A stretch of DNA of 64,000 nt, from positions 25,638-89,637 of the forward strand of contig JAIBAC010000001.1 in NCBI GenBank assembly GCA_019695375.1, read 5' to 3'. This DNA is from Acidimicrobiia bacterium. GTDB lineage: Bacteria; Actinomycetota; Acidimicrobiia; UBA2766. The notes beneath the pieces were generated by a model. The model saw only the letters and a program-made list of their open reading frames with translations, had not been told where the DNA came from and searched no databases. Positions 2,376 to 23,183 of the stretch are shown piece after piece; positions within the stretch are counted from its first letter, which is position 1; each line of letters opens with the position of its first letter. The position numbers and the translations under genes were made by a program.

Positions 2376-2965
2376 CGGACCCACACCGCGTGGCTGGCGG
2401 CCTCGAGGAGATCGGAGTCGCCCGCGGAGTCCCCGTAGGCCCAGAGCTCGACCGCGTCGACGGACTCGCCCAGCCACTCCTCGAGTCGTGCGACCTTCGC
2501 GGGCCCGCGCACGTTGCCGCCGGCCATGACCCCGGTGAGCACCCCGTCGCGCGCCTCCAGTTCGACTGCGCAAACGCCGTCGAAGCCGAGCGCGGCACCG
2601 ACATGGCGCAGGTAGACGTCGAGCGAGGCGGACACGACCACCAGCTCGTCCCCGCGGCGGCGATGCTCCTCGACGCGGCCGACCGTGTCAGCGCGCAGGC
2701 GGCGTTGCAGGATCTCGGTCGCGAACTCCGCTCCCATCGCCTCGACGTCGACGGCGCTGCGACCGCGCAGGACGCGTGCGAAGACCGCCGCCTTCAGCTC
2801 GTCACGGCTCGTACGCCCCGTGGCGACCCCGAGCAGGCGCGGGAGCTCGGCGGCCATGGCGGCCAGGAAGCGCCACACGCCCGCGACCCGCACCAGGAAC
2901 GGCACGAGGCAGTCGCGCTTGCTCAGCGTCCCGTCGAAGTCGAACGCAGCAACGTGCCGTGGCAC
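2372..2965 (-). CDS. HAD-superfamily hydrolase (HAD-IB / phosphoserine-phosphatase-like)
   Basis: N-terminal DFDGTL motif (FDFDGTLS), C-terminal GDSAGD motif; sits immediately downstream of dprE2. Confidence 0.75.
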   Translation of the reverse strand: MPRHVAAFDFDGTLSKRDCLVPFLVRVAGVWRFLAAMAAELPRLLGVATGRTSRDELKAAVFARVLRGRSAVDVEAMGAEFATEILQRRLRADTVGRVEEHRRRGDELVVVSASLDVYLRHVGAALGFDGVCAVELEARDGVLTGVMAGGNVRGPAKVARLEEWLGESVDAVELWAYGDSAGDSDLLEAASHAVWVR

Positions 2966-2972
2966 CGCGACC

Positions 2973-3743
2973 TCAGATCGGCAGGCGGCGGAACACGGCG
3001 CGGGGCATGTGACGCAAGCCGCTCATCACCCACCGGAACAGGGGCGGCGCCCACACGATCTCCTTGCCGGTGGCGACGCCTTCGACGATGATCCGCGCCA
3101 CGTCGCCGGCATCGACGGCGAGCGGTGCAGCAGCCATGCCGGCCGTCATCTTGGTCTTGACGAAGCCAGGCCGCACGATCAGCACCCGTGCACCGGTGCC
3201 CTGCAGGCGGTCCTGAAGCCCCTGGGCCACGTAGTCGAGGCCCACCTTGGACGCGCCGTAGACGAAGTTCGACCTGCGCGGTCTCTCCGCCGCTGCCGAC
3301 GACATCACGACCGCGGTGCCGTGGCCTTGCTGCTCGAGGCGGTTCGCGATCGGCATCAGCAGCGAAACCGCTCCCGTGAGGTTCGTTCGCAGTTCGGCGA
3401 GGGCGGCTCGTGCATCGCGGGAGTTGCGGTCCTGGTCGCCGAGCACACCCCAGGCGAGATGGACGACGTCGAAGTCGCCGTAGTGGCCGAACACGCCGTC
3501 GACGAAGCGCTGGTGCTCGTCGGGGTCTGCCCACGCGTCGAAGCCCACGACCTCGGCCGTGGCGGCGCCGGCGGCGCGCAGCGCGGCCGCGTTCTCCTCT
3601 GCCGCGGCCTTGTCGCTCTCGAGGGCCGCGAGGACGACGACGCGGGCTCCGCGCTCGACGAACGCGAGCGCCGTGGCGCGGGCGATGTCGGATGCTCCTC
3701 CGAGGACGAGGAGCGAGTCGACTTTGCCGAGGGCGTCTTGCAT
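2973..3743 (-). CDS. dprE2: decaprenylphospho-2-keto-ribose 2-reductase DprE2-like short-chain dehydrogenase
   Basis: SDR Rossmann motif GGASDIARA, 256 aa, immediately downstream of DprE1 homolog as in mycobacterial Rv3790-Rv3791. Confidence 0.8.
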   Translation of the reverse strand: MQDALGKVDSLLVLGGASDIARATALAFVERGARVVVLAALESDKAAAEENAAALRAAGAATAEVVGFDAWADPDEHQRFVDGVFGHYGDFDVVHLAWGVLGDQDRNSRDARAALAELRTNLTGAVSLLMPIANRLEQQGHGTAVVMSSAAAERPRRSNFVYGASKVGLDYVAQGLQDRLQGTGARVLIVRPGFVKTKMTAGMAAAPLAVDAGDVARIIVEGVATGKEIVWAPPLFRWVMSGLRHMPRAVFRRLPI

Positions 3744-12421: not shown

Positions 12422-12805
12422 TCAGCTGCGGCGCGCGGTGCTCCCGCGCAGCACCCCGGCGACTTGCAGTGCGAGGTCGCGCGGTTCGAACGGTTTCGTC
12501 ACATAGGTGTCGGCGCCGGCGGCGAGGCCGGCCGCCACATCCGCGGCCTGGGCGCGGGCCGAGAGCATCAGGATCCCGACACGGGTCGTCGCCGGCTCAG
12601 CCCGCAGCGACCTGCACACGTCGATGCCGTCGACGCCGGGCAGCATCACGTCGAGCACGACGAGCTCGGCGCCGATGTCGTGGGCCACCGTCACAGCGCC
12701 GAGGCCGCGGTCGACGACGGTCACCTCGTGGCCCTCGAGCTCGAGCGTGAGGCGCACGAGCTTCTGCACCGAAGGGTCGTCCTCGACGACGAGAATGCGT
12801 GCCAC
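12422..12805 (-). CDS. stand-alone response regulator receiver domain protein (CheY-like)
   Basis: 127 aa; ILVVEDD, LVVLDVMLPGVDG, TKPF motifs. Confidence 0.8.
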   Translation of the reverse strand: MARILVVEDDPSVQKLVRLTLELEGHEVTVVDRGLGAVTVAHDIGAELVVLDVMLPGVDGIDVCRSLRAEPATTRVGILMLSARAQAADVAAGLAAGADTYVTKPFEPRDLALQVAGVLRGSTARRS

Positions 12806-12906
12806 ACGGCCAGCCTACGGGGCGATCGCGACGCTGCAGACGCCGGCCGCGTCGTCCACCTCCGAGGCGTGGCGGCGACGGGTGGCGGTTACACTCGCAG
12901 GTCGTT

Positions 12907-12981
12907 GCCCTCGTAGCTCAGGGGATAGAGCACCGGCCTCCGGAGCCGGGTGCGGAGGTTCGAATCCTCCCGGGGGCGCCA
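12907..12981 (+). tRNA. tRNA-Arg (anticodon CCG)
   Basis: Hand-folded cloverleaf: acceptor GCCCTCG/CGGGGGC, D-arm GCTC AGGGGATA GAGC, anticodon loop CUCCGGA, T-arm GGAGG TTCGAAT CCTCC, discriminator G plus CCA. Confidence 0.8.
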
Positions 12982-13034
12982 GCGAAGCAGTGCCACGATC
13001 CTCTTGGTGAGCGGCTCGCCTCGAAGTCGACTTT

Positions 13035-13298
13035 TCACCAACGCAGCTCAGCGGCTTCGGTCACGAGCGCGTCGCTCACCGGAACGATGGTCGTGCCGGC
13101 GATTGCCGCCTCGAGGCGAAGTCGACGAGCCTCCCCCCAACCGGCGACAAGCGCGCCATACCGCAGCTCGGCAACAGTCTGCGCCGCGAGGAGGACGATC
13201 CGGCCGGTCATGGCTCGAACCTGCGCCTCGAAGCGCTGCCTTCGTCGAATCGACAGCGAGGCGCTGAAGACCCCGGTGTCGACCAGGATGCGACTCAC
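13035..13298 (-). pseudogene. truncated PIN-domain toxin (VapC-like N-terminal ~87 aa), GTG start, no adjacent antitoxin ORF
   Basis: SRILVDTGVF...TVAELRYGA matches first half of VapC PIN domains; ORF ends ~55 bp from tRNA-Arg 3' end; C-terminal PIN acidic residues missing. Confidence 0.5.
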
Positions 13299-13381
13299 GC
13301 TTCAAGTGCAGCGAAGAAGGCGTCGACCACCTCATCGGGGAGGCTACCGCCGACGATCCACCAGTGGTCACGACGTGACGC

Positions 13382-14095
13382 TCAGGGGCGAACGGCCTCG
13401 AAGACCATCGTCTCGAAGCGGTTGATGCGCTCGTCGCCGATGAACTCGCCGTGGGTCTCGAGTCCGCTGAGGGCGTCGTGTTCGCTCTTGGCGACATCGC
13501 ACTCGGCGACGTCGACGAAGCCGGCGGCGTCGAGGGCGGCCTGCAGCGTGCGGCGTGCGTAGACGAAGGTGTGACCCCAGGCGCGCATCGCGTGGTTCAA
13601 GACGTGCACCTCGTCGGCCTCGGGCACGTCCTCGAAGTACATCCGCTTGTAGTAGTCGACGTAGTGGCGTGCGTCGTCGCCGGCGGCCCCCGGCACGAGG
13701 CCCACGAGCGTCTCCAGGCACGGCGTCGCCACGCGCAGCACCCCGCCGGGGCGCAGCACGCGGCGCACCTCCGCCAGCAGGCTCTTGCCTGCGGGGTAAG
13801 GGACGTGCTCGATGACGTGTTCGGTGAACACGTAGCGGAAGGTGGCGTCGTCGAAGGGGAGCGGTTCCGTGGCGTCGAGGAACACCATCCCGGGAAGGTC
13901 GTCGAGGTCGGTGTTCAGCCAGCCGTCGAGCGGGTTGCCGCCACCGCCGATCTGGAGTTTGGGCTCGGTCGCCTCCGCCAGGTAGGCAGCCACCTGAGCG
14001 GGACGGCGACGCCGGCGTGCCATCGTCCGCACCTCGGTACGCAGGACGTGGCCGACGTATCGGATGCGGTCGAGATTGCGGCTCGCTGTCGACAT
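13382..14095 (-). CDS. class I SAM-dependent methyltransferase
   Basis: Motif I-like LQIGGGGNPLDGWLNTD, motif post-I/II (VLRPGGVLRV); start at first ATG 14095 (GTG 14113 alternative). Confidence 0.65.
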   Translation of the reverse strand: MSTASRNLDRIRYVGHVLRTEVRTMARRRRRPAQVAAYLAEATEPKLQIGGGGNPLDGWLNTDLDDLPGMVFLDATEPLPFDDATFRYVFTEHVIEHVPYPAGKSLLAEVRRVLRPGGVLRVATPCLETLVGLVPGAAGDDARHYVDYYKRMYFEDVPEADEVHVLNHAMRAWGHTFVYARRTLQAALDAAGFVDVAECDVAKSEHDALSGLETHGEFIGDERINRFETMVFEAVRP

Positions 14096-14165
14096 AGGTG
14101 CCTCATTCCGCACGGCGATCCCGCGCTCCTGCGCTGACTTGCGGGCTGTGGCGGCGACGCGAGGC

Positions 14166-15257
14166 CTAGACCATCGCGCCCACGTCGGCGTCGGCGTGGG
14201 CCTCCATGAACTCCACGAGGTGCGGGAGGTACGACGCTACCGGTGGGCACGTCACGCCGCTGCCTTCGAGATCGCGGCCGGCGTTGGTCGTGTCGTAGTG
14301 GGTCGGGTGCACGAAGTACGCGACGGCGCTCGCGGGGATCCGCATGAAGCGCTCGAGGGGGCCGATGTTCGCGAGCGCCCACGTGGTGAGGCGCTGCGGC
14401 ATCGGTACCCGTACCGCACGCCTCGACGTGACGCGGCACATCTCCACTATGAGCTCCTCGATGGTCAGAGGCCGTGGATCGGCGAGCTGGTACGTGACCC
14501 CGAGCGAGGTGGTGGACGCAGCGAGTTGGTCGATGGCGTCGATGACGAAGTCCGACGGCACCATGTTGAAGCGCGTCTTGCGCGGGTCGCCGATGACGGG
14601 GACCACCGCGAACGACTGCGGCTGACGCAGCAGCCACTGCAGCACGAAGTACGGTCCGTCGAACTTCTGCGTCTCGCCGGTGTGGGAGTCGCCGACGACG
14701 ACCGACGGCCGGTAGACGGTCGTGGGCATGCCGCCGTCGCGGGCTTTCGCCACCTCGACCTCGGCGAGGAACTTCGTCTCCTCGTAGTAGTTGTTGAAGC
14801 CCTGCCCCACGTCGAGGTCGGTCTCCTTGAACGGACCGCAGTGGTGGCCGCTCACGTAGCAGGTGCTGACGTAGTGGTGGCGTTGCAAGCCGGGGCAGTC
14901 CGCGGCGAAGCGCAGGACGTTGCGGGTGCCTTCGACGTTGACGGCCATCCCCACCTCCCGCGCGACGCCCAGGTCGTAGACCGCTCCCAGGTGCCAGACC
15001 TCCGTCGTCTGCGCCATGATCTCCGCGCGTCCGGCGAGATCGAGGTCCGCGGCGGTGAGGTCGCCGGCCACGCACTCGATCCGGCCCGCGAGGGCGGGCT
15101 CGTGGGCGACGAGCTCCTCGACACGCGCCTTCGCGAGGGCGTCGAACTTCGGTTGCACGAGGCACACGGCGCGGGCGTCGGGCCTGCGTGCGAGGATCCG
15201 CGGAACCAGCCGGCTTCCCAGGAAACCCGGGAAGCCCGTGACGAAGATCGTGTCCAT
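14166..15257 (-). CDS. NAD(P)-dependent epimerase/dehydratase-family reductase (fatty acyl-CoA reductase / thioester-reductase-domain-like)
   Basis: N-terminal IFVTGFPGFLGS Rossmann, YxxxK-type SDR extended family; start set at MDTIF (15257) inside ORF to 15338. Confidence 0.65.
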   Translation of the reverse strand: MDTIFVTGFPGFLGSRLVPRILARRPDARAVCLVQPKFDALAKARVEELVAHEPALAGRIECVAGDLTAADLDLAGRAEIMAQTTEVWHLGAVYDLGVAREVGMAVNVEGTRNVLRFAADCPGLQRHHYVSTCYVSGHHCGPFKETDLDVGQGFNNYYEETKFLAEVEVAKARDGGMPTTVYRPSVVVGDSHTGETQKFDGPYFVLQWLLRQPQSFAVVPVIGDPRKTRFNMVPSDFVIDAIDQLAASTTSLGVTYQLADPRPLTIEELIVEMCRVTSRRAVRVPMPQRLTTWALANIGPLERFMRIPASAVAYFVHPTHYDTTNAGRDLEGSGVTCPPVASYLPHLVEFMEAHADADVGAMV

Positions 15258-15352
15258 GCGCCTGCCCTCCGACCGTCTCGCCGAACTCACCCTCCCCGCG
15301 AGGGTATCGCCCGCGTGAGCTACTTGACAAACGGTCATCAGATGTCCAATGT

Positions 15353-16528
15353 ATGGACATGACTGCGATACCCGTAAACCAGGCGGCGGCGGCCTGGCGC
15401 GACCGCAAGCGCTATCTCTGGCCCTTCGCTCTCCTGGTCCCGGCCCTGCCCTTCATCGCCGGTGGGCTCGTGGCGCTCACCGGCTCCGGCGTGTTCTGGT
15501 GGGTCGGCCCCCTCGTGGTGTTCGGTGTCATGCCGCTGCTCGACACGGTCCTCGGCCGCGACAGCACCAACCCGCCCGACACAGCGGTCGCCTCCCTCGA
15601 GTCCGACCACTACTACCGCTGGTGCACGTACCTGTTCGTCCCGCTCCAGTACGCGTCGCTCGTGTGGGCATGCTGGATGTGGTCGCGCGGGTCCCTCGCG
15701 CCCGTGGACTCGTTCGGTCTCGCGATCACCGTCGGCTGCGCCGCCGGCATCGCGATCAACACGGCGCACGAGCTGGGCCACAAGCGACCTGCGGTCGAGC
15801 GGTGGCTGTCGAAGGTCGCGCTCGCACAGACCGGCTACGGCCACTTCCAGCTCGAGCACAACCGCGGCCACCACGCGCGGGTCTCGACCCCTGAGGACCC
15901 GGCGAGCTCGCGCATGGGCGAGCACTTCTACGAGTTCTTCCCCCGCACCGTCATCGGCGGACTGCGCTCGGCGATCCGCCTCGAGCGCGAGCGCGAGGCG
16001 CGCACGGGTGAGCGGTTCTGGTCGCCGCGCAACGAGCTCCTCAACGCGTGGGTGATGACCGTCGTGCTGTTCGGCGCCCTCGTGGCGATCTTCGGGCTCG
16101 CGGTCCTGCCGTGGCTTGTCGTGCAGGCCGTGTTCGGCTTCTCCCTGCTCGAGGTCGTCAACTACGTCGAGCACTACGGCCTGCTGCGCGACCGCCGCGC
16201 GGACGGCAAGTACGAGCGCTGCCGTCCGGAGCACTCGTGGAACGCCAACCACACGGTCTCGAACCTGTTGCTGTTCCACCTGCAGCGCCACAGCGACCAC
16301 CACGCCAACCCCACGCGCCGCTTCCAGACGCTGCGCCACTTCGATGACGCACCTCAGCTTCCCAGCGGGTACGCAGGCATGATCCTGCTCGCATACGTTC
16401 CACCCCTGTGGCGACGCGTGATGGACCACCGCGTCCTCGCGTTCTACGACGGTGACCTCGACCGCGTGAACGTCCACCCCCGGGCGCGGCGTCGCCTCGA
16501 GCGTCGCTACGGCACGGCGGCCGCGTGA
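15353..16528 (+). CDS. alkB: alkane 1-monooxygenase (AlkB-type integral membrane di-iron hydroxylase)
   Basis: Three histidine boxes HELGHK, EHNRGHH, LQRHSDHH plus hydrophobic TM segments; 391 aa. Confidence 0.85.
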   Translation: MDMTAIPVNQAAAAWRDRKRYLWPFALLVPALPFIAGGLVALTGSGVFWWVGPLVVFGVMPLLDTVLGRDSTNPPDTAVASLESDHYYRWCTYLFVPLQYASLVWACWMWSRGSLAPVDSFGLAITVGCAAGIAINTAHELGHKRPAVERWLSKVALAQTGYGHFQLEHNRGHHARVSTPEDPASSRMGEHFYEFFPRTVIGGLRSAIRLEREREARTGERFWSPRNELLNAWVMTVVLFGALVAIFGLAVLPWLVVQAVFGFSLLEVVNYVEHYGLLRDRRADGKYERCRPEHSWNANHTVSNLLLFHLQRHSDHHANPTRRFQTLRHFDDAPQLPSGYAGMILLAYVPPLWRRVMDHRVLAFYDGDLDRVNVHPRARRRLERRYGTAAA

Positions 16529-17172
16529 GCAGCGCGTCGAAGCCGGAACCCGTGACCCCGGTTCCCTTCGGCGAGGCGGCGCGGGCGCTGATGCAGACCA
16601 CGATCCTGGCAGCCGTGCGCGACCTGATGGACGACCGTCCGTGGAGCTCCATCACCATGGCCGACGTCGCCCGGCGCGCGGGCGTGAGCCGCCAGACGCT
16701 CTACAACGAGTTCGGCGGCCGCAAAGACCTCGCGCGGGCGTACGCACTGGACGTGGCCGACTCGCTCCTCGACCGTGTCGAGGCGGAGGCGCTCAGCCAC
16801 GCCGGCGATCCCCGCGCTGCGCTACTGGGCGCGTTCTCGCTGTTCCTGACGATCGCGGCGGACGAACCGATCGTGCGTGCTCTGACCGCCCCGAGCGGCG
16901 CTGACGACTTCGCGGCGCTGGTCGGCACGCCCGAGGGAGTGCCGATCCTGAACGGGGCGACGGAACGGATCCGCAAGGTGATGCGGACGCTGGCCCCTCT
17001 CGCCGCCGCCGAGGACGTCGCCGCCCTCGCCGACGTCGTCGTGCGCCTCGCGATGAGCCACCTGAGCGTGCCGGGCGGCTCGGTCGCGGAGGCCACGGAG
17101 GCGCTCACACGCGTGGTCGGGCCGGCGCTCGACACGCTCGCCGCGGGACCGGCCCGCACTCAGGTGGGCTAG
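16525..17172 (+). CDS. TetR-family transcriptional regulator (AlkU-like), ATGA-coupled to alkB
   Basis: N-terminal HTH (ITMADVARRAGVSRQTLYNEFGGRKDL); 215 aa. Confidence 0.8.
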   Translation: MSSASKPEPVTPVPFGEAARALMQTTILAAVRDLMDDRPWSSITMADVARRAGVSRQTLYNEFGGRKDLARAYALDVADSLLDRVEAEALSHAGDPRAALLGAFSLFLTIAADEPIVRALTAPSGADDFAALVGTPEGVPILNGATERIRKVMRTLAPLAAAEDVAALADVVVRLAMSHLSVPGGSVAEATEALTRVVGPALDTLAAGPARTQVG

Positions 17173-17181
17173 CGTCGCCGT

Positions 17182-17547
17182 ATGGGTGTCGCACGGCGCG
17201 TCGCGAGGTTCAACAAGCACGTCACCAACCGCGTGCAGATGCTGTGGGCCCCACGTTTCGCGCCGTGGGCAGTCGTCATCCACGTCGGCAGGCGCAGCGG
17301 TCGTGAGTACCGCACACCGGTGGTCGCCGCGGTCTCGGGATCGACCATCACCATCGCGCTCCCCTACGGCGTCGAGTCGGACTGGGTGCAGAACCTGCTC
17401 GCGGCGAAGGGCGGGACCTTCGTTCGGCGTCGTCGCGAGTACCGGCTCATGGACCCCACGGTGGTGGCGGCCTCGGGAGCGGGCGCCGGGATCATCCGCC
17501 CGCTGATGGGCATCACGTCGCACGCCCTCGTCGCGCGCATCGGCTGA
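17182..17547 (+). CDS. nitroreductase-family deazaflavin (F420)-dependent oxidoreductase (DUF385)
   Basis: 121 aa; GRRSGREYRTPV motif characteristic of DUF385/Ddn-like proteins. Confidence 0.7.
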   Translation: MGVARRVARFNKHVTNRVQMLWAPRFAPWAVVIHVGRRSGREYRTPVVAAVSGSTITIALPYGVESDWVQNLLAAKGGTFVRRRREYRLMDPTVVAASGAGAGIIRPLMGITSHALVARIG

Positions 17548-17596
17548 CACCCGGGGAGGCCCAGCCCGGGCAGTTCGACGCGGGAGCGCCGCATCG

Positions 17597-18751
17597 ATGC
17601 GTCCCGACCCGAGCGGACATGCGCCCGGCGTACTAGACCTGATCCCCGATTTCGCGCGAGGAGGCGGCAGTGGCATGCATGCACCGCACACGCCGGCAAC
17701 CCGAGGGGCCGGCGCCGCGGTGAGTGTCAGCGGCGGGGCAGGACGCGCCGTCGCGTCGTGGGATGCCCTCATCGAGGCGTCGGGACGGCGCGAAGGGAAC
17801 GCCCTCCTCATCTCGGAACCTCCCTTCGTGCAGTCGGCGCAGACGCCTGTGTGGCCGCTGAGCCAGGTGATCGCTGCTGCGATGAGCCTTGCCGACGCCG
17901 GCACGGTCGCGTTCGACATCGAGGTCGATCGTCTCCTCGCGGGTCTCGAACGGCACCGCCGCGGTGACGCGTACACGGCCCACCCGCGTGAGAGGCTCCG
18001 CTACTACGACGACAACGCCTGGGTCGGACTCGGGCTCGCTCAGTGGCACACCCAGCGCGGGCGCGGACGCGATCTCGCCGCCGCACGCCGGTTGTTCGCG
18101 TTCGCGGCCGCAGGCGAACATCGAGACGGCGGAGTCCATTGGCGCGAGGGGACGCGCGAGCCGCGCAACACCTGCTCGACCGCACCGGCCGCGCAGCTCG
18201 CCCTGCGCATCCACGGTCTCACCGGCGAGCCCGGCCTCGTCGAGTTCGCGGCACGTGCCGACAGGTTCCTGTCCGAGACGCTCGAGTCTCCGCAGGGCCT
18301 GATGTGGGACCACGTCGATGCCGACGGCACGGTCGAGCGGACCGTGTGGTCCTACAACCAGGGCAGCACGGTCAGCGCTCGCGTCCTGCTCGGCCGCGCC
18401 ACCGGCGACGCGCGCCACGTTCGAAGTGCGCAGGCGCTCGCGGATGCGACGCTGGAGCACTTCGGCCGCGACGACGGCTGGTGGCGCCAGCCTGCGGTCT
18501 TCAACGCCATCTGCCTGCGGAACCTGGTCTCCGCCGCCGCAATCGCACCCGAGATCGGGCGCGACCGCATCCACGCCACTCTCGCGGACTACCTCGATCG
18601 CGTCTGGGAGGAGGCGCGCGAGGACGAAACCGGCCTGTTCGTCAACGGCGGCATCGGCCGGTACGACCAGAGCTGCATCGATCAGGCCGGCATCACTCAG
18701 CTCTATGCGCTCAGCGCGTGGCCTCGTGACCGGCTCCACCTCGTCGCCTGA
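17597..18751 (+). CDS. glycoside hydrolase family 76-like (alpha-1,6-mannanase fold) protein
   Basis: YYDDNAWVGL and WSYNQGS motifs typical of GH76; true start uncertain (alternative ATG 17675). Confidence 0.6.
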   Translation: MRPDPSGHAPGVLDLIPDFARGGGSGMHAPHTPATRGAGAAVSVSGGAGRAVASWDALIEASGRREGNALLISEPPFVQSAQTPVWPLSQVIAAAMSLADAGTVAFDIEVDRLLAGLERHRRGDAYTAHPRERLRYYDDNAWVGLGLAQWHTQRGRGRDLAAARRLFAFAAAGEHRDGGVHWREGTREPRNTCSTAPAAQLALRIHGLTGEPGLVEFAARADRFLSETLESPQGLMWDHVDADGTVERTVWSYNQGSTVSARVLLGRATGDARHVRSAQALADATLEHFGRDDGWWRQPAVFNAICLRNLVSAAAIAPEIGRDRIHATLADYLDRVWEEAREDETGLFVNGGIGRYDQSCIDQAGITQLYALSAWPRDRLHLVA

Positions 18752-18820
18752 CGCGTGGGTAGGAGATACCGTCACCCCGGTGCTTCTCATCGATTCTCAT
18801 CTTGAGTAGCCTCACAGACG

Positions 18821-19255
18821 ATGAGCTCGGATCTCCACGTGACGGTCGCGGCACGGCTCCACCAGGTGGGCCAGCGCTTCACGCCGGGACGTCGTGCGCT
18901 CGTCGACGTGCTCGACGCGTCCGAGCGGCCGCTCACGCTGCCCGAGATCCTCGAACACGACAGCTCTGTCGCCCAGAGCAGCGCCTATCGCAATCTGAGC
19001 GTGCTCGAGCGCGCGAGCGTCGTACGGCGCATCTCGACGACCGACGAGTGGGCGCGCTTCGAGCTCGCCGAGGACCTCACCGAGCACCACCACCATCTGA
19101 TCTGCGGCATCTGCGGCACCGTCGAGGACTTCACCGTCGGCGCCGACCTCGAGTTGGCGGTCGACCGTGCTCTGAGGCGCATCGCGCGGAGGCGCGGCTT
19201 CGCGCCGGAGCACCACCGCCTCGACCTGATCGGCACCTGTTCCAGGTGCGTTTGA
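18821..19255 (+). CDS. Fur-family metalloregulator (likely Zur)
   Basis: 144 aa; HHHHLICGICG...CSRC metal-binding motifs; adjacent (convergent) to Zn-type ABC transporter. Confidence 0.75.
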   Translation: MSSDLHVTVAARLHQVGQRFTPGRRALVDVLDASERPLTLPEILEHDSSVAQSSAYRNLSVLERASVVRRISTTDEWARFELAEDLTEHHHHLICGICGTVEDFTVGADLELAVDRALRRIARRRGFAPEHHRLDLIGTCSRCV

Positions 19256-19270
19256 GGCCCCGGCCTGACC

Positions 19271-20119
19271 TCAGCGACCGTGCCGGACCCGAGCGCGCGA
19301 CACGGCGTACAGCACCAGCCACACGGCGACCGCGATCGTGACGATCGCGAAGCTCGGCGGCAGGTCGAACATCGCGGCTGCCAAGAGGCCCGTCCACACC
19401 GACACCAGCGCGATCGCGGTCCCGAGCGCGACGACCGCGGCCGGCCGCGCCGTGACGTAGAGGGCAGCGGCCGACGGCGTGACCACCAGTGCGAACAGCA
19501 GCAGCGTCCCGATCACCTGGACCGACATCGTCACCACCAGCGCGAGCAGGACCATGAAGACGACCCCGAGCGCGCGCACGGGCACGCCTCTTGCCTCGGC
19601 CACCTGCGGGTCGATCGAGGCGAACACGAGCGGCCGTGCGACGACGGCGAGCACGGCACCGAGCACGAGCGTGAAACACGCGAACGTGAGGATCTGGGCA
19701 CCGGACACACCGAGCAGGTTCCCGAAGAGGATGCTCGTCACGGTGCTCGCACTCCGGCTCGCGAGTGAGCCGAAGAGGACCCCGAGCGCCGTCGCGAAGG
19801 CGAGCACCGTGCCGGTCGCCACCTCGCGCTCGGAGACGGCCTTGCCCAGGGCTCCGATCGCAAGCGCACCTGCGATGCAGAAGACGAGGAGGCCCGCCGT
19901 CACCGGCAACCCGAGCACGACCGCCCCCGTCGCTCCCGGGAAGCCGATGTGCGCGAGCGCATGCGCGGCGAAGACCTGCCTGCGCACGACGACGTGATAG
20001 CCGATGAGACCGGCTGCCACCGCCACGAGCGAGCCGGCGACGAACGCGTTCACCATGAACGGCGCGCGGACGACGTCGAACCAGTCCGATTGGTAGCCGA
20101 CCGCGGCGACCACGCCCAT
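19271..20119 (-). CDS. znuB: metal ABC transporter permease (ZnuB/TroCD family)
   Basis: 282 aa, 8-9 TM helices, ABC-3 family profile. Confidence 0.8.
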   Translation of the reverse strand: MGVVAAVGYQSDWFDVVRAPFMVNAFVAGSLVAVAAGLIGYHVVVRRQVFAAHALAHIGFPGATGAVVLGLPVTAGLLVFCIAGALAIGALGKAVSEREVATGTVLAFATALGVLFGSLASRSASTVTSILFGNLLGVSGAQILTFACFTLVLGAVLAVVARPLVFASIDPQVAEARGVPVRALGVVFMVLLALVVTMSVQVIGTLLLFALVVTPSAAALYVTARPAAVVALGTAIALVSVWTGLLAAAMFDLPPSFAIVTIAVAVWLVLYAVSRARVRHGR

Positions 20120-20895
20120 CAGCCACCTCCGCCCCGCGTGAACAGGTCGCCCTGAGCGGTCCTGACCACACGCACCGGTGTCCCGTAGAGGTGCGTGAGC
20201 AGTTCGGAGTTCACGACGGCACCGATCTCGTCGTAGTGGGGATGGCCGTCGAGGAGGTAGACCGCGCCGGTGAGGACGGGCAGGAGCGGGTTCACGTCGT
20301 GGGAAACCACCATGATCGTGACGTCACCACGGGCGCTGACGTCCTCGATGAGCGACACCACGTCGCTCTGGCTCGCCACGTCGAGACTCGAGAGCGGCTC
20401 GTCGAGGAGGAGCAGGTCGGGGTCGTCGACGAGGGCCTGCGCGATCGCGACGCGCTGCTGCTGGCCTCCGGAGAGACGCGAGACGCGCCGGTTCGCGAAC
20501 TCGGCGACGCCGGCGTCTTCCAATGCCGCGTCCACACGGCCGCGATCGTTCGCAGACAGCGGCCGCATGCCCCACCTGGTGCCCGAGATCCCGAGGGCGA
20601 CCAGGTCGCGGCAGCGGACCGCTTCACCGACCGAAGCCGTGTAGTTCTGCGGCACGTAACCGATGCGGCGATTGCCGCGCCTGGGACGGTCACCGAGAAC
20701 GCGGACGCTGCCCTCACTTGGCGCCACGAGGCCGAGGAGCAGTTCGAACAGCGTCGTCTTTCCCGACCCGTTGGGACCGATCACGGCCACGCAGGCACCG
20801 GCGGGCAGCGCGAAGGTGCCTTCGGACCAGAGCCGGTGCCCGCCCCGCTTCACGGCGACCCCGTCGAGCTCGACCACGTCCTCCGCCGCGGTCAT
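20119..20895 (-). CDS. znuC: metal ABC transporter ATP-binding protein
   Basis: Walker A GPNGSGKTT, signature LSGGQQQRV, Walker B LLLLDEP; ATGA overlap with upstream SBP gene; real start ATG 20895 inside long ORF. Confidence 0.85.
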   Translation of the reverse strand: MTAAEDVVELDGVAVKRGGHRLWSEGTFALPAGACVAVIGPNGSGKTTLFELLLGLVAPSEGSVRVLGDRPRRGNRRIGYVPQNYTASVGEAVRCRDLVALGISGTRWGMRPLSANDRGRVDAALEDAGVAEFANRRVSRLSGGQQQRVAIAQALVDDPDLLLLDEPLSSLDVASQSDVVSLIEDVSARGDVTIMVVSHDVNPLLPVLTGAVYLLDGHPHYDEIGAVVNSELLTHLYGTPVRVVRTAQGDLFTRGGGG

Positions 20896-21872
20896 CGCAG
20901 CCCCAGAGCGCCGGCGAGGCTGTCGAGCTGGCCGACCTGCCACGCCACGAACCCGTCGACACCGGCCGGGACGGTCTCCGTCACCTCGACGACGGGCACC
21001 GAAGACGCCACGGCGCGGGATCGCGCGCTGTCGGCGAGGGTGCTCTCGGTCTGGCTGTTGAAGACGAGCACGTCGACGGCATGCGTGCTCAGCTCCTCCC
21101 CCAGCGCGTAGACGTCGCCCGGCGACGGATCGGCCTCGTTCGCGGTGGCAGCCGCATACCCGGCGGGCGTGCGGTCCACGAGCCCGAGGGCATCGGCCAT
21201 GTGGTCGAAGACCGGCTCGGTGGCAGCGAACCGCCGCCCCGCCGCGCCCGCGCGCATGGCGGCGACCGCTGCATGGATCGGCTCGACGCGCGCCGTCCAC
21301 TCGGCCCGACGCGCGTCGAGGTAGTCCGCGGCTCCGGGTGACAGCGCGCGCAGTTCGGCGGTCACGGCATCGGCGACCTGATCGAGGAACCGCGGTCCGT
21401 ACCAGATGTGGGGGTTGTCGCCCTCGTGGAGCCCCACCACCTCGCCGGCATCCACCACGGGCGGCGCCGGCGACATGGTGTCGAGGACGTGCTCGGCCCA
21501 ATCGTCGTAGCCGAGACCGTTGGCCACGACGAGGTCGGCGTCGGTGAAGCGCGCCGCATCCGACGTGGCCGGCTCGAACTCGTGAGGATCTGCCGCGGAC
21601 CTCCCGACGATGGTCGTCACGTGGCCGCACGCTCCCGCGACCGTGGTCACGAGATCGGTCCACTGACCGACCGTCACCACGATGTCGACGGGCTCCACCG
21701 GGCAGTCGGCGCGACCGGCGGCTGCCGCGTCACCCGGGCGCATCGTGGCGGGCTCCTGCGCCGCGCACCCGGGGATCACGGCGGCCGCGACCGAGGTGGC
21801 AGCGAGCACACGGACGGACAGGGGCACCACAGGGTCGTCTCGGGCAGGGGCTATTCCGGCTTTGAGAATCAT
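20892..21872 (-). CDS. znuA: metal (Zn/Mn) ABC transporter substrate-binding lipoprotein (ZnuA/TroA family)
   Basis: Signal peptide with lipobox (VIPGCAAQ), TroA-like fold motifs (DPHIWY-like GDNPHIWYGP); start ATG 21872. Confidence 0.8.
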   Translation of the reverse strand: MILKAGIAPARDDPVVPLSVRVLAATSVAAAVIPGCAAQEPATMRPGDAAAAGRADCPVEPVDIVVTVGQWTDLVTTVAGACGHVTTIVGRSAADPHEFEPATSDAARFTDADLVVANGLGYDDWAEHVLDTMSPAPPVVDAGEVVGLHEGDNPHIWYGPRFLDQVADAVTAELRALSPGAADYLDARRAEWTARVEPIHAAVAAMRAGAAGRRFAATEPVFDHMADALGLVDRTPAGYAAATANEADPSPGDVYALGEELSTHAVDVLVFNSQTESTLADSARSRAVASSVPVVEVTETVPAGVDGFVAWQVGQLDSLAGALGLR

Positions 21873-21877
21873 ACTCA
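21863..21877. promoter_or_regulatory. candidate Zur box: imperfect palindrome TGAGAATcATACTCA overlapping znuA start codon
   Basis: 7-1-7 inverted repeat (6/7 match) resembling actinobacterial Zur boxes (TGAAAATGATTTTCA class); located in divergent promoter region. Confidence 0.4.
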
Positions 21878-21944
21878 CTGCAGGAGGCGGCCGGGCAACC
21901 CCGCCACGCGGCCTCCCACGCCTTCGTGCCGTAGGCTCTCCGGC

Positions 21945-23183
21945 ATGTCGATCGACATGCGCACCCGCGACGACGCGGTCGAGCCGCCGCCCGTCGATCC
22001 CGAGGCGTTCTTCGACGCGGACCTCCCCGATCTGTTCGCACGTGCGGCCGGCTTGGTCGCACCCGGACTCTCCCTCCTCGACCCTGCACCGGTCGCGATC
22101 GAGGTCGGTGACCGCAGCTGGTTGCTGGAGGCGTCGGGCACCGGCGAGCCACACGTGACCGCCGAGACCGGCCGTAGGGGCGCGGCAGCCGAGGCAGGCC
22201 GGCTGCGGCTCACACCTGAGCAGCTGCACGACCTCGTCCACGACCAGGTGACCGCCATGGGGCTGTTCTCCGCGGGTCGCATCGACGTGTCGCGGGTCCG
22301 CCTCGATCACGTCCTGCACTGGTGGCTCGCGCTGCGCAGCGCCCTCGACCAGGTACCTGTGCACACGCCTGGTGCCGTCGAGACCCTCGACGCCGACGGA
22401 CGGCCCCTCGACCTGAAGCGCTCGTTCGACCCCGACGACGACCGCGCCGAGATGGCCCGCTTCCTGGAGGCGGCGGGGTTCCTGCACGTGCGCGGGATGT
22501 ACACCGAGTCCGAGATGCGCCAGGTCGAACTGGACATGGACGCCGCCGCACCCGACTACTCACCCGGCGACGGGCGTTCCTGGTGGGCCCGCACCGACGG
22601 CGGCGTCTCGCGGCTGGTGCGCATGCAGTACTTCGACCGCAAGTCCGAAACCGTCGCGGCGATGCTCGACGACGACCGATTCCAATCCCTCGCCGGCCTC
22701 CCCGGCTGTGGCCATGTGGCCCGCCCTCACGACCACACCAACCGCATCGAGGCGCTCTTCAAACCGCTCGGGGTCGTGGAGGGGATCTCCGACGTGCCCT
22801 GGCACAAGGACTGCAGCCTCGGCCGCCACTCCTACGAGTGCTGTGGAATCACCGTCGGCTTCTCCGTGACAGGGGCGGGGCCCGACTCGGGCCAGCTCCG
22901 CGTGATCGCCGGCTCCCACAGGGCTCTCGTGTGGCCGGCGCTGCTGCAGCCGGGTCTCGACCTCGAGGAGGTCGAGCTGCCGACCGAACGCGGCGACGTG
23001 ACCCTCCATCTGAGCTGCACCCTGCACATGGCACAGCCGCCGACCGAACGTGAACGCCGCGTCATGTACACGTCGTTCACGCTGCCGCCGGTCGATGCCG
23101 GAGCCACGTCAGCGGCCCGCCGGCGCCTCGGGGCACTGCGCGAGGCCGCGCCTGTGTCCGTGTCCCAACCGGCCGCGCGGTAG
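21945..23183 (+). CDS. SCP2-like lipid-binding domain fused to phytanoyl-CoA dioxygenase (PhyH)-like Fe(II)/2OG oxygenase domain
   Basis: N-term SCP2-type pattern; C-term HxD (VPWHKDCS) and distal His (LHLSCTLHM); start ATG 21945 inside longer ORF. Confidence 0.55.
   Translation: MSIDMRTRDDAVEPPPVDPEAFFDADLPDLFARAAGLVAPGLSLLDPAPVAIEVGDRSWLLEASGTGEPHVTAETGRRGAAAEAGRLRLTPEQLHDLVHDQVTAMGLFSAGRIDVSRVRLDHVLHWWLALRSALDQVPVHTPGAVETLDADGRPLDLKRSFDPDDDRAEMARFLEAAGFLHVRGMYTESEMRQVELDMDAAAPDYSPGDGRSWWARTDGGVSRLVRMQYFDRKSETVAAMLDDDRFQSLAGLPGCGHVARPHDHTNRIEALFKPLGVVEGISDVPWHKDCSLGRHSYECCGITVGFSVTGAGPDSGQLRVIAGSHRALVWPALLQPGLDLEEVELPTERGDVTLHLSCTLHMAQPPTERERRVMYTSFTLPPVDAGATSAARRRLGALREAAPVSVSQPAAR

What the first reader, a model, noticed from the sequence alone, without database searches (positions are those of the whole stretch)
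12907..17172. tRNA-Arg(CCG)-adjacent block: truncated VapC, methyltransferase, fatty-acyl-reductase-like SDR, divergent alkB-TetR without rubredoxins
A toxin remnant abutting a tRNA 3' end suggests a past integration or deletion at a tRNA hotspot. The adjacent cargo (AlkB hydroxylase, AlkU-like TetR, acyl reductase, MTase) looks like an alkane/long-chain alcohol/wax module. In mycobacteria alkB is followed by rubA/rubB, so their absence here raises the question of the electron donor. No integrase is visible, so this is an old or decayed island at most.
Basis: partly seen in the sequence, partly recalled or inferred. Interest (0 to 1): 0.5.

Follow-up and report, generated by a model that had tools for sequence, protein, structure and literature searches.

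The report
Resident alkB operon beside tRNA-Arg hotspot
A tRNA-Arg gene that acts as an insertion hotspot is followed by a 350-bp dead toxin-antitoxin fossil and an accessory methyltransferase, then by a resident, repressor-controlled alkane hydroxylase operon. The locus is ordinary, and lacking neighbouring rubredoxin genes is the usual state among this enzyme's relatives.

Summary
No rubredoxin occurs anywhere in the 64 kb.

The tRNA is a live integration site. In 99.7%-identical sibling strains, identity breaks at the last 12 nt of the tRNA, and at least 5.9 kb of low-GC restriction-modification/defence DNA lies there instead. The VapB'C' fossil has atypical codon usage, and its intact relatives sit among integrases. 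VapB'C' and the methyltransferase are both absent from a related Acidimicrobiia MAG.

The SDR, alkB, TetR and a 121-aa gene are not island cargo. Their codon usage is host-typical. They lie next to the same tRNA in that MAG and keep the same order in two further lineages.

Missing rubredoxins are unremarkable: 61 of 80 related alkB loci have none nearby. A conserved TTGACA box and a TGTCCA-N5-TGGACA palindrome over the alkB start suggest TetR repression of a leaderless alkB-tetR operon.

Verdict: an ordinary new member of known kinds, of low interest.

The parts
12907..12981 (+). tRNA-Arg(CCG) gene with encoded CCA
   Evidence: ARAGORN; Rfam RF00005, 65.2 bits. The orthologous tRNA holds the same position in L005 and L089.
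12970..12981 (+). Putative attB core, CCGGGGGCGCCA (3' acceptor strand + CCA). This is the point where sibling-strain contigs switch from 99.7% identity to unrelated low-GC DNA.
   Evidence: BLAST colinearity starts at window 12967. Base-by-base junction is the same in L001, L002 and L004. Those contigs hold no tRNA. The inserted DNA has GC 53-67% against a host value of ~70%.
13035..13298 (-). VapC (PIN) pseudogene. It keeps the N-terminal 87 of ~135 aa and lacks the C-terminal NDLWIAA and TAD acidic motifs.
   Evidence: Pfam PIN positions 1-84/120. Alignment to intact 134-136-aa homologues. GC3 0.76, codon-usage z -2.3.
13295..13381 (-). VapB antitoxin pseudogene. Only the last ~28 codons remain (..LPDEVVDAFFAALEA*), with no start codon. 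Its stop overlaps the vapC start (GTGA).
   Evidence: Frame translation. C-terminus matches intact 58-69-aa antitoxins encoded upstream of intact VapC homologues (..DAFYAALDA*..DAFAAALES*).
13382..14095 (-). Class-I SAM-dependent methyltransferase, 237 aa (an alternative GTG start lies at 14113). It is a lineage-restricted accessory gene of unknown substrate.
   Evidence: Methyltransf_11/23/25. Host-like codon usage. Absent from L005. Best homologues elsewhere are no more than 51% identical, sit in unrelated contexts, and are never next to alkB or the SDR.
14166..15257 (-). Stand-alone thioester-reductase/fatty-acyl-reductase-like extended SDR, 363 aa, divergent from alkB
   Evidence: NAD_binding_4 E 1.5e-44. 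Matches the N-terminal half of PRK07201 and TIGR01746. Best solved relatives are the MxaA and PKS/CAR reductase domains. TGFPGFLG and YEETK motifs present. Conserved divergent from alkB in L005, L176 and L177.
15324..15359 (+). Putative alkB promoter/operator. TTGACA (15324-15329), a 17-nt spacer, CAATGT, 6 nt, then ATG at 15359. The palindrome TGTCCA-N5-TGGACA (15343-15359) spans the -10 box and the start.
   Evidence: Invariant columns in a five-locus alignment, while the rest of the intergenic region has diverged. It does not pass the strict sigma-70 consensus scan. Function is inferred.
15359..16528 (+). alkB, integral-membrane di-iron alkane 1-monooxygenase. The conserved start is ATG 15359; an in-frame ATG also lies at 15353.
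   Evidence: FA_desaturase E 4e-34. HELGHK, EHNRGHH, NYVEHYG and LQRHSDHH motifs, plus hydrophobic segments. E 2.6e-144 to 8f6t, aligned to the hydroxylase part only. In L176 only the second ATG is present.
16525..17172 (+). AlkX/AlkU-type TetR repressor, translationally coupled to alkB by a 4-nt overlap
   Evidence: TetR_N + TetR_C_35. Best solved relative is Rv3249c (5d1w), E 9.4e-35 over the full length. Rv3249c/AlkX directly represses alkB-rubAB in M. tuberculosis (PMC9430723). The alkB-TetR_C_35 pair recurs in L005, L085, L088, L176 and L177.
17182..17547 (+). 121-aa protein distantly related to deazaflavin-dependent (DDN/FDOR-type) oxidoreductases. It travels with alkB-TetR in close relatives only.
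   Evidence: TIGR00026 scores 41 bits against a cutoff of 46, and PF04075 gives E 0.004. Conserved after the TetR gene in L005 (63%) and L176 (70%) but not in L085. No informative solved relative.

Best explanation
The interval joins two unrelated things.

(1) A tRNA-Arg(CCG) gene whose 3' end is an attachment site for integrative elements. The 1.2 kb next to it holds the dead stump of a mobile-element VapBC toxin-antitoxin pair, with the toxin cut at its 3' end and the antitoxin at its 5' end. It also holds a lineage-restricted methyltransferase. Together these are what is left of older insertion and deletion events. In sibling strains a fresh restriction-modification/defence element occupies the same site.

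(2) A resident chromosomal lipid/alkane oxidation unit. alkB and an AlkX-like TetR form a translationally coupled operon. It is probably leaderless and probably repressed by the TetR through a palindrome that covers the -10 box and the start codon, with relief expected from a lipid-type ligand. A thioester-reductase-type SDR is transcribed divergently from the same 100-bp control region, and a small 121-aa gene follows the TetR gene.

AlkB most likely takes electrons from a rubredoxin and reductase encoded elsewhere in the genome, as in most of its relatives.

What is shown and what is inferred:
- Shown: gene identities, the truncations, the strain polymorphism at the tRNA, the synteny, and the composition.
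- Inferred: the repression mechanism, the leaderless start, the remote electron donor, and the direction of the methyltransferase gain or loss.
For: - Gene identities.
- Truncated VapC and VapB. Intact homologues lie between two tyrosine-recombinase genes and transposases, or beside HTH_17/HTH_3 genes.
- Hotspot: L001, L002 and L004, from three samples, are 99.68% identical to the window from 12967 rightward. To the left they carry an ApaLI-type endonuclease, a C5 DNA methylase, a Vsr-like gene and a TIR-like gene at GC 53-67%. L089, at 99.72% identity, shows the same unoccupied arrangement as the window.
- Residency of the alkB unit: in L005 the order is RR, tRNA-Arg, 140 bp, SDR, alkB, TetR, p121. 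L176 and L177 keep SDR, alkB and TetR, and L176 also keeps p121. Codon usage is host-typical. The flanks are housekeeping genes: lysA, hom and thrC to the left, and Fur and znuABC to the right.
- Regulation: an invariant CTTGACA, the TGT.CA half-site and GACATG at fixed spacing in five loci. The TetR is homologous to AlkX/Rv3249c (PMC9430723).
- Rubredoxin: none in the window. Only 19 of 80 related loci have one nearby. Literature: PMC11854999, PMC8918992.
Against: - The left junction of the sibling-strain element, which should show an intact tRNA and an integrase, was not recovered. Site-specific integration is therefore inferred from the breakpoint position and the composition alone.
- Only one relative (L005) spans the tRNA-SDR junction. 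For the methyltransferase, which has host-like codon usage, gain in the window lineage and loss in L005 cannot be told apart.
- The proposed promoter fails a strict sigma-70 consensus scan, and no operator has been tested.
- Whether this genome encodes any rubredoxin could not be checked beyond the 64 kb.
Confidence: 0.8

Rival explanations
1. One reading: the whole 12982-17172 block (VapC', methyltransferase, SDR, alkB, TetR) is one old, decayed genomic island that brought an alkane/wax module to the tRNA.
For: The block starts at a tRNA 3' end with a toxin remnant. The tRNA is demonstrably a hotspot. alkB genes occur on plasmids in other actinobacteria.
Against: SDR, alkB, TetR and p121 lie beside the same tRNA in L005, without VapC' or the methyltransferase, at ~80% nucleotide identity. 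Their codon usage is at or above the window mean. There is no att repeat: the best downstream match to the tRNA 3' half is below the shuffle mean, with 172 of 200 shuffles scoring at least as high. No integrase is present. Plasmid matches cover only the alkB coding sequence, at 66-73%.
Confidence: 0.07
2. No island remnant at all. VapBC and the methyltransferase were ordinary chromosomal genes of the common ancestor. VapBC decayed in place in the window lineage, and L005 deleted the whole 1.2 kb.
For: The methyltransferase has fully host-like codon usage. Only a single relative documents the absence. Toxin-antitoxin genes are also common chromosomal residents.
Against: Both ends of the TA pair are cut by deletions rather than point mutations, and one cut lies 53 nt from the att-bearing tRNA end. 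The VapC' codon usage is atypical. Intact homologues sit among recombinases and transposases. The methyltransferase has no homologue above 51% identity in the scan and is scattered across contigs of 29-74% GC, the pattern of a horizontally moving accessory gene.
Confidence: 0.12
3. This AlkB clade has dispensed with rubredoxin. It uses another donor, for example through the co-conserved 121-aa FDOR-like protein, or it acts with the divergent reductase in a dedicated long-chain alcohol/aldehyde pathway rather than in alkane catabolism.
For: alkB-TetR with no rubredoxin gene in between recurs in every close relative examined: L005, L085, L088, L176 and L177. The SDR and p121 co-occur with alkB in the ~80%-identity lineages.
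Against: The protein is highly similar over its full hydroxylase length to a structurally solved rubredoxin-dependent AlkB. Remote rubredoxin genes are well documented (PMC11854999). p121 is below family cutoffs and is absent after the TetR gene in L085. The SDR is absent from alkB loci beyond the closest lineages.
Confidence: 0.05

Closest known systems
Mycobacterium tuberculosis alkB-rubA-rubB-alkX (Rv3252c-Rv3249c) and the actinobacterial 'complete alkB cluster'
   Same: An AlkB hydroxylase carrying the four histidine boxes, followed co-directionally by an Rv3249c-type TetR (E 9e-35 to 5d1w). The stop and start codons overlap. The TetR is a direct repressor of the operon in M. tuberculosis (PMC9430723).
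   Different: The two rubredoxin genes between alkB and the regulator are missing, so alkB overlaps the TetR gene directly. A thioester-reductase-type SDR lies divergently upstream. The host is an Acidimicrobiia-like lineage, not a member of the Mycobacteriales.
AlkB types without a neighbouring rubredoxin gene (e.g. Rhodococcus AlkB3-AlkB8 types, PMC11854999; Burkholderia alkB loci L030-L042)
   Same: A stand-alone alkB with no rubA, rubB or reductase nearby. This is the majority state among the 80 related loci.
   Different: Here the AlkX-type TetR stays coupled to alkB, an arrangement otherwise typical of the rubredoxin-containing clusters (L007, L012, L020 and L022).
Fontimonas thermophila AlkB-AlkG fusion (PDB 8f6t)
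   Same: The closest solved structure. It aligns over residues 9-385 at E 2.6e-144 with all metal-binding motifs.
   Different: The window protein ends at residue 391 and has no fused C-terminal rubredoxin domain.
tRNA-gene-targeting integrative elements / genomic islands with VapBC addiction modules
   Same: The breakpoint lies in the 3' acceptor strand of a tRNA gene. The occupying DNA in sibling strains is low-GC defence cargo. A TA remnant lies beside the site, and its intact VapBC relatives are flanked by tyrosine recombinases.
   Different: The window itself has no integrase, no direct repeat and no cargo beyond a 347-bp TA stump and possibly one methyltransferase.
Stand-alone NAD_binding_4 fatty acyl-CoA reductases (N-terminal half of the PRK07201/AcrA1-type proteins; NRPS/PKS/CAR terminal R domains)
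   Same: Extended-SDR fold with TGxxGxxG and YxxxK motifs. NAD_binding_4 E 1.5e-44. Matches PRK07201 positions 3-357 of 657.
   Different: It covers only the reductase half, has no carrier or adenylation domains, and scores below the equivalog cutoffs. The substrate is unknown.

Membership tests
AlkB integral-membrane alkane 1-monooxygenase | Histidine boxes HELXHK, EHXXGHH and LQRHSDHHA plus the NYXEHYG motif | tested here: met
   HELGHK at 139, EHNRGHH at 168, NYVEHYG at 270, LQRHSDHH at 310
AlkB integral-membrane alkane 1-monooxygenase | Full-length similarity to a structurally or biochemically characterised AlkB, with membrane-spanning segments | tested here: met
   8f6t E 2.6e-144 and 8sbb E 1.6e-126 over residues ~9-386. 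Hydrophobic segments at 21-69, 115-138 and 227-273.
AlkB integral-membrane alkane 1-monooxygenase | A rubredoxin / rubredoxin reductase electron-transfer partner encoded in the genome | not testable with these tools
   None in the 64-kb window and none in the flanks of the close relatives.
AlkX/AlkU (Rv3249c-type) TetR repressor of alkB | TetR_N HTH plus TetR_C_35 ligand domain, closest to Rv3249c | tested here: met
   PF00440 E 1e-10 and PF18556 E 1e-19. 5d1w E 9.4e-35, residues 7-201.
AlkX/AlkU (Rv3249c-type) TetR repressor of alkB | Encoded co-directionally just downstream of alkB, with a conserved operator at the alkB promoter | tested here: inconclusive
   Position is met: 4-nt overlap, and the pair recurs in five related loci. 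A conserved palindrome, TGTCCA-N5-TGGACA, overlaps the start. Binding has not been tested.
VapBC type II toxin-antitoxin system | Complete PIN domain with all four conserved acidic residues | tested here: not met
   Only PIN positions 1-84 of 120 are present. The C-terminal ~49 aa, including the NDLWIAA and TAD motifs of the intact homologues, are absent.
VapBC type II toxin-antitoxin system | Complete upstream antitoxin gene with start codon and N-terminal domain | tested here: not met
   Only ~28 C-terminal codons remain, with no start codon, abutting the methyltransferase stop. Intact antitoxins are 58-69 aa.
tRNA-integrated genomic island (for the 12982-17172 block) | Direct repeat of the tRNA 3' end at the distal border | tested here: not met
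   No match to the 25-mer or the 17-mer with up to 3 mismatches. The best local alignment is below the shuffle mean.
tRNA-integrated genomic island (for the 12982-17172 block) | Integrase or other mobility genes | tested here: not met
   Pfam and NCBIfam annotation of all genes from 12422 to 19255 shows none.
tRNA-integrated genomic island (for the 12982-17172 block) | Atypical composition and presence/absence among relatives | tested here: inconclusive
   Both criteria are met only for VapC' (z -2.3, and absent from L005). The methyltransferase meets the presence/absence criterion alone: it is absent from L005 but has host-typical codon usage. SDR, alkB, TetR and p121 meet neither: they are host-typical and syntenic in L005, L176 and L177.
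Fatty acyl-CoA / thioester reductase (NAD_binding_4 extended SDR) | NAD_binding_4 domain with an N-terminal TGxxGxxG motif and a catalytic YxxxK | tested here: met
   PF07993 E 1.5e-44, positions 1-258 of 258. TGFPGFLG at 7 and YEETK at 158. MxaA R domain E 1.8e-23.
Fatty acyl-CoA / thioester reductase (NAD_binding_4 extended SDR) | Acyl-thioester substrate and alcohol/aldehyde product | not testable with these tools
   All NCBIfam equivalog models score far below their cutoffs. No conserved partner genes reveal the substrate.

The most novel reading that the evidence does not exclude
The Acidimicrobiia/Thermoleophilia clade of AlkB, in which alkB is fused in an operon directly to the AlkX-type repressor, may have lost dependence on rubredoxin. 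It would then draw electrons from a different partner, possibly the co-conserved 121-aa FDOR-like protein, or work with the divergent thioester reductase as a dedicated long-chain alcohol/aldehyde-forming unit rather than a catabolic alkane hydroxylase.
Probability: 0.05. Interest if true: 0.6.

Novelty: new member of a known kind. Interest (0 to 1): 0.2.

Why it matters
The locus has modest value as a clean natural example of serial use of one tRNA-Arg(CCG) attachment site. It shows an old toxin-antitoxin stump, an unoccupied site, and a freshly occupied site carrying a restriction-modification/TIR-like defence element, all in conspecific populations.

It also documents that poorly studied Acidimicrobiia carry a chromosomally resident AlkB with an AlkX-type repressor and a likely leaderless, operator-overlapped promoter. 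This could help when reading alkB hits in metagenomes.

It does not pose a real puzzle about AlkB electron supply, because alkB without a neighbouring rubredoxin gene is the common state.

Tried and rejected
- Downstream copy of the tRNA 3' end. Neither the 25-mer nor the 17-mer matched with up to 3 mismatches, and a gapped local alignment scored no better than shuffles. The weak match inside the SDR coding sequence (~14218-14248) is chance.
- Rubredoxin in the window. A motif scan, memory-derived probes and real probes cut from L010, L012, L020, L021 and L022 gave nothing better than E 0.11.
- Exact-sequence look-ups of the window AlkB and the response regulator found nothing. The locus was reached instead through the 99-100% cluster representatives P0001 and P0121.
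- The left end of the sibling-strain element could not be reached. The contigs stop inside the element, and its proteins were not eligible for look-up.
- The metagenome scan with the methyltransferase found only distant homologues (51% identity or less) in unrelated contexts, so it gave no functional link.
- PADLOC and Pfam gave nothing for the 385-aa island protein and nothing for the 212-aa protein. A DNA hit suggests the 212-aa protein is Vsr-like.
- The strict sigma-70 promoter and terminator scan found no promoter in 12800-17700.
- Rfam found only the tRNA.
- p121 has no informative solved relative, and the gene downstream of the TetR in L085 is unrelated to it.
- A literature search for a reductase-alkB linkage found nothing relevant.
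- The block has no plasmid counterpart beyond the alkB coding sequence.

Full report
**Observation.** The window is a ~70% GC chromosome segment, and third-position GC separates real genes from the many spurious ORFs. All features reported for 12907-17172 are present.

- tRNA-Arg(CCG) lies at 12907-12981 (Rfam).
- An 87-aa PIN/VapC ORF lies at 13035-13298 on the minus strand and covers only positions 1-84 of the 120-position PIN model.
- A class-I methyltransferase lies at 13382-14095.
- A NAD_binding_4 'male sterility'/thioester-reductase-type SDR lies at 14166-15257.
- alkB lies at 15353/15359-16528 and a TetR (TetR_N + TetR_C_35) at 16525-17172.
- AlkB carries HELGHK, EHNRGHH, NYVEHYG and LQRHSDHH. 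It matches the solved Fontimonas AlkB at E 2.6e-144, but only over the hydroxylase part of that AlkB-rubredoxin fusion.
- The TetR's best solved relative is Rv3249c (E 9.4e-35). That protein is the AlkX repressor of alkB-rubAB in M. tuberculosis (PMC9430723).
- No rubredoxin is encoded anywhere in the 64 kb, even when probed with genuine rubredoxins cut from related alkB loci.

**The toxin remnant.** Intact homologues of the VapC ORF are 134-136 aa and up to 79% identical. The alignment shows that the window copy stops at residue 87 and lacks the C-terminal NDLWIAA and TAD acidic motifs. Only 53 nt separate its stop from the tRNA, so the missing part has been deleted.

This stretch (..DAFFAALEA*) has no start codon and touches the methyltransferase stop codon. 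It matches the C-termini of the 58-69-aa antitoxins encoded upstream of intact homologues.

The toxin-antitoxin pair is therefore a 347-bp stump cut at both ends. Its codon usage is the only atypical one in the neighbourhood (GC3 0.76, z -2.3). Intact relatives sit between two tyrosine-recombinase genes and transposases, or next to excisionase-type HTH genes.

**The tRNA is a live hotspot.** The 99%-identical AlkB cluster representative led to contigs from several SRA samples. L001, L002 and L004 are 99.68% identical to the window from position 12967 rightward, through VapC', the methyltransferase, the SDR, alkB and a further 9 kb.

To the left, identity ends exactly after the last 12 nt of the tRNA (CCGGGGGCGCCA, 12970-12981). 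These contigs contain no tRNA. Instead they hold at least 5.9 kb at 53-67% GC, encoding:

- an ApaLI-type endonuclease and a C5 DNA methylase;
- a Vsr-like protein;
- an unknown 385-aa protein;
- a 345-aa protein with a TIR/nucleoside-deoxyribosyltransferase-like C-terminus.

A JGI contig (L089, 99.72% identity) shows the unoccupied arrangement of the window, tRNA included. Occupied and unoccupied forms of the same site therefore coexist in one species-level population. The other end of the element, where an integrase would be expected, was not recovered.

**The alkB unit is resident, not cargo.** The nearest genome is the Acidimicrobiia MAG STL-ACT9 (L005), with 82% AlkB identity and ~80% nucleotide identity over the flanks. 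It has the response regulator, the same tRNA-Arg(CCG), 140 bp of spacer, then SDR, alkB, TetR and p121. It has neither the VapBC stump nor the methyltransferase.

Two further lineages at ~80% AlkB identity (L176, L177) also keep the divergent SDR, alkB and TetR, and L176 keeps p121 as well. At 72-74% identity only the alkB-TetR_C_35 pair persists, in other contexts (L085, L088).

The methyltransferase, SDR, alkB, TetR and p121 all have host-typical codon usage (z 0.0 to +1.0). The flanks are housekeeping genes: lysA, hom and thrC on one side, and Fur and a znuABC-like transporter on the other. Farther along the window are pilus, ETF and ribosomal genes.

No repeat of the tRNA 3' end exists downstream, and no integrase is present. 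The methyltransferase has no homologue above 51% identity in the metagenome scan. Its distant relatives lie in contigs of 29-74% GC and are never near alkB, SDR, TetR or VapC genes. It is best seen as a lineage-restricted accessory gene. Whether it arrived with the old element or was lost from L005 cannot be decided from one comparison.

**Rubredoxins.** Among 80 species-level alkB loci fetched with up to 10 kb of flank, only 19 have a rubredoxin gene nearby. Burkholderia, Streptomyces, Catellatospora and most Acidimicrobiia loci have none.

The literature agrees. In Rhodococcus, AlkBs without a neighbouring rubredoxin gene form a large and diverse cluster (PMC11854999). The OCT-type arrangement, with all partners together, is described as a minority (PMC8918992).

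What is slightly unusual here is that the AlkX-type regulator, which normally follows rubA and rubB (as in L007, L012, L020 and L022), directly overlaps alkB. This looks like the actinobacterial cluster with the rubredoxin genes removed. Whether this genome has rubredoxins elsewhere could not be tested.

**Likely mechanism.** The 100-bp SDR-alkB intergenic region has diverged between lineages except for three elements at fixed spacing: CTTGACA, a TGT.CA half-site, and GACATG. The layout is TTGACA (15324-15329), 17 nt, a CAnnnT hexamer, 6 nt, then ATG 15359. In the four closest sequences the palindrome TGTCCA-N5-TGGACA (15343-15359) spans the -10 region and the start codon.

In L176 only the second ATG exists, so 15359 is the conserved start. 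I infer a leaderless alkB-tetR transcript repressed by its own TetR, by analogy with AlkX (PMC9430723). The strict sigma-70 scan does not call this promoter, and nothing here tests binding.

The SDR is a stand-alone reductase domain of the acyl-thioester-reducing type. It shares the control region, so it may be co-regulated. Its substrate and any pathway link to AlkB remain unknown.

**Verdict.** It is wrong about the extent of that island and about the significance of the missing rubredoxins. The locus is a new member of known kinds and of low interest. The sibling-strain defence element at the same tRNA is the most useful by-product.

Noticed in passing
L002 1-5884 (also L001 1-5624 and L004 1-1953); junction at window 12970: Conspecific strains (99.68% identity) carry a low-GC element ending at the tRNA-Arg 3' end. 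It encodes an ApaLI-type endonuclease, a C5 DNA methylase, a Vsr-like 212-aa protein, an unknown 385-aa protein, and a 345-aa protein with a TIR/nucleoside 2-deoxyribosyltransferase-like C-terminus (PADLOC E 4e-9). It looks like a defence island. Just inside its end lies a degenerate T-loop-like GGGTTCGAA.
   Followed up: partly
window 15324-15359; L005 9972-10007; L176 ~548-585: A conserved TTGACA-17-CAnnnT-6-ATG layout and a TGTCCA-N5-TGGACA palindrome lie over the alkB start. They suggest a leaderless, TetR-repressed alkB-tetR operon whose true start is ATG 15359 rather than 15353.
   Followed up: partly
window 17182-17547: A 121-aa protein scores just below the cutoff for the deazaflavin-dependent (DDN/FDOR) oxidoreductase family. 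It follows the TetR gene in the window, L005 and L176, but not in L085.
   Followed up: partly
L005 8673-8811: In the related MAG, the 140-bp spacer between tRNA-Arg and the SDR stop consists of two ~60-nt direct repeats. Each contains a CCCAAACGCGGGC...GCCCGCGTTTGGG hairpin. Nothing similar is present in the window.
   Followed up: no
L174/L175 4887-7594: An intact VapBC pair, 70% identical to the window remnant, is sandwiched between two tyrosine-recombinase genes, with Transposase_mut genes nearby. This fits a mobile origin for this VapBC family.
   Followed up: partly
window 2851-3276: blastn does not align a ~426-nt stretch between the window and contig L089, although the flanks on both sides are 99.7-100% identical and the gap has the same length in both. 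It may be a masked low-complexity or hypervariable segment.
   Followed up: no
window 18821-21100 and 21342-23183: Just to the right of the block lie a Fur-family regulator, a znuABC-like (ZnuA / ABC_tran / ABC-3) metal uptake operon and a PhyH-family dioxygenase, followed by a thioredoxin. All are syntenic in the sibling contigs. None is a plausible AlkB electron donor.
   Followed up: partly
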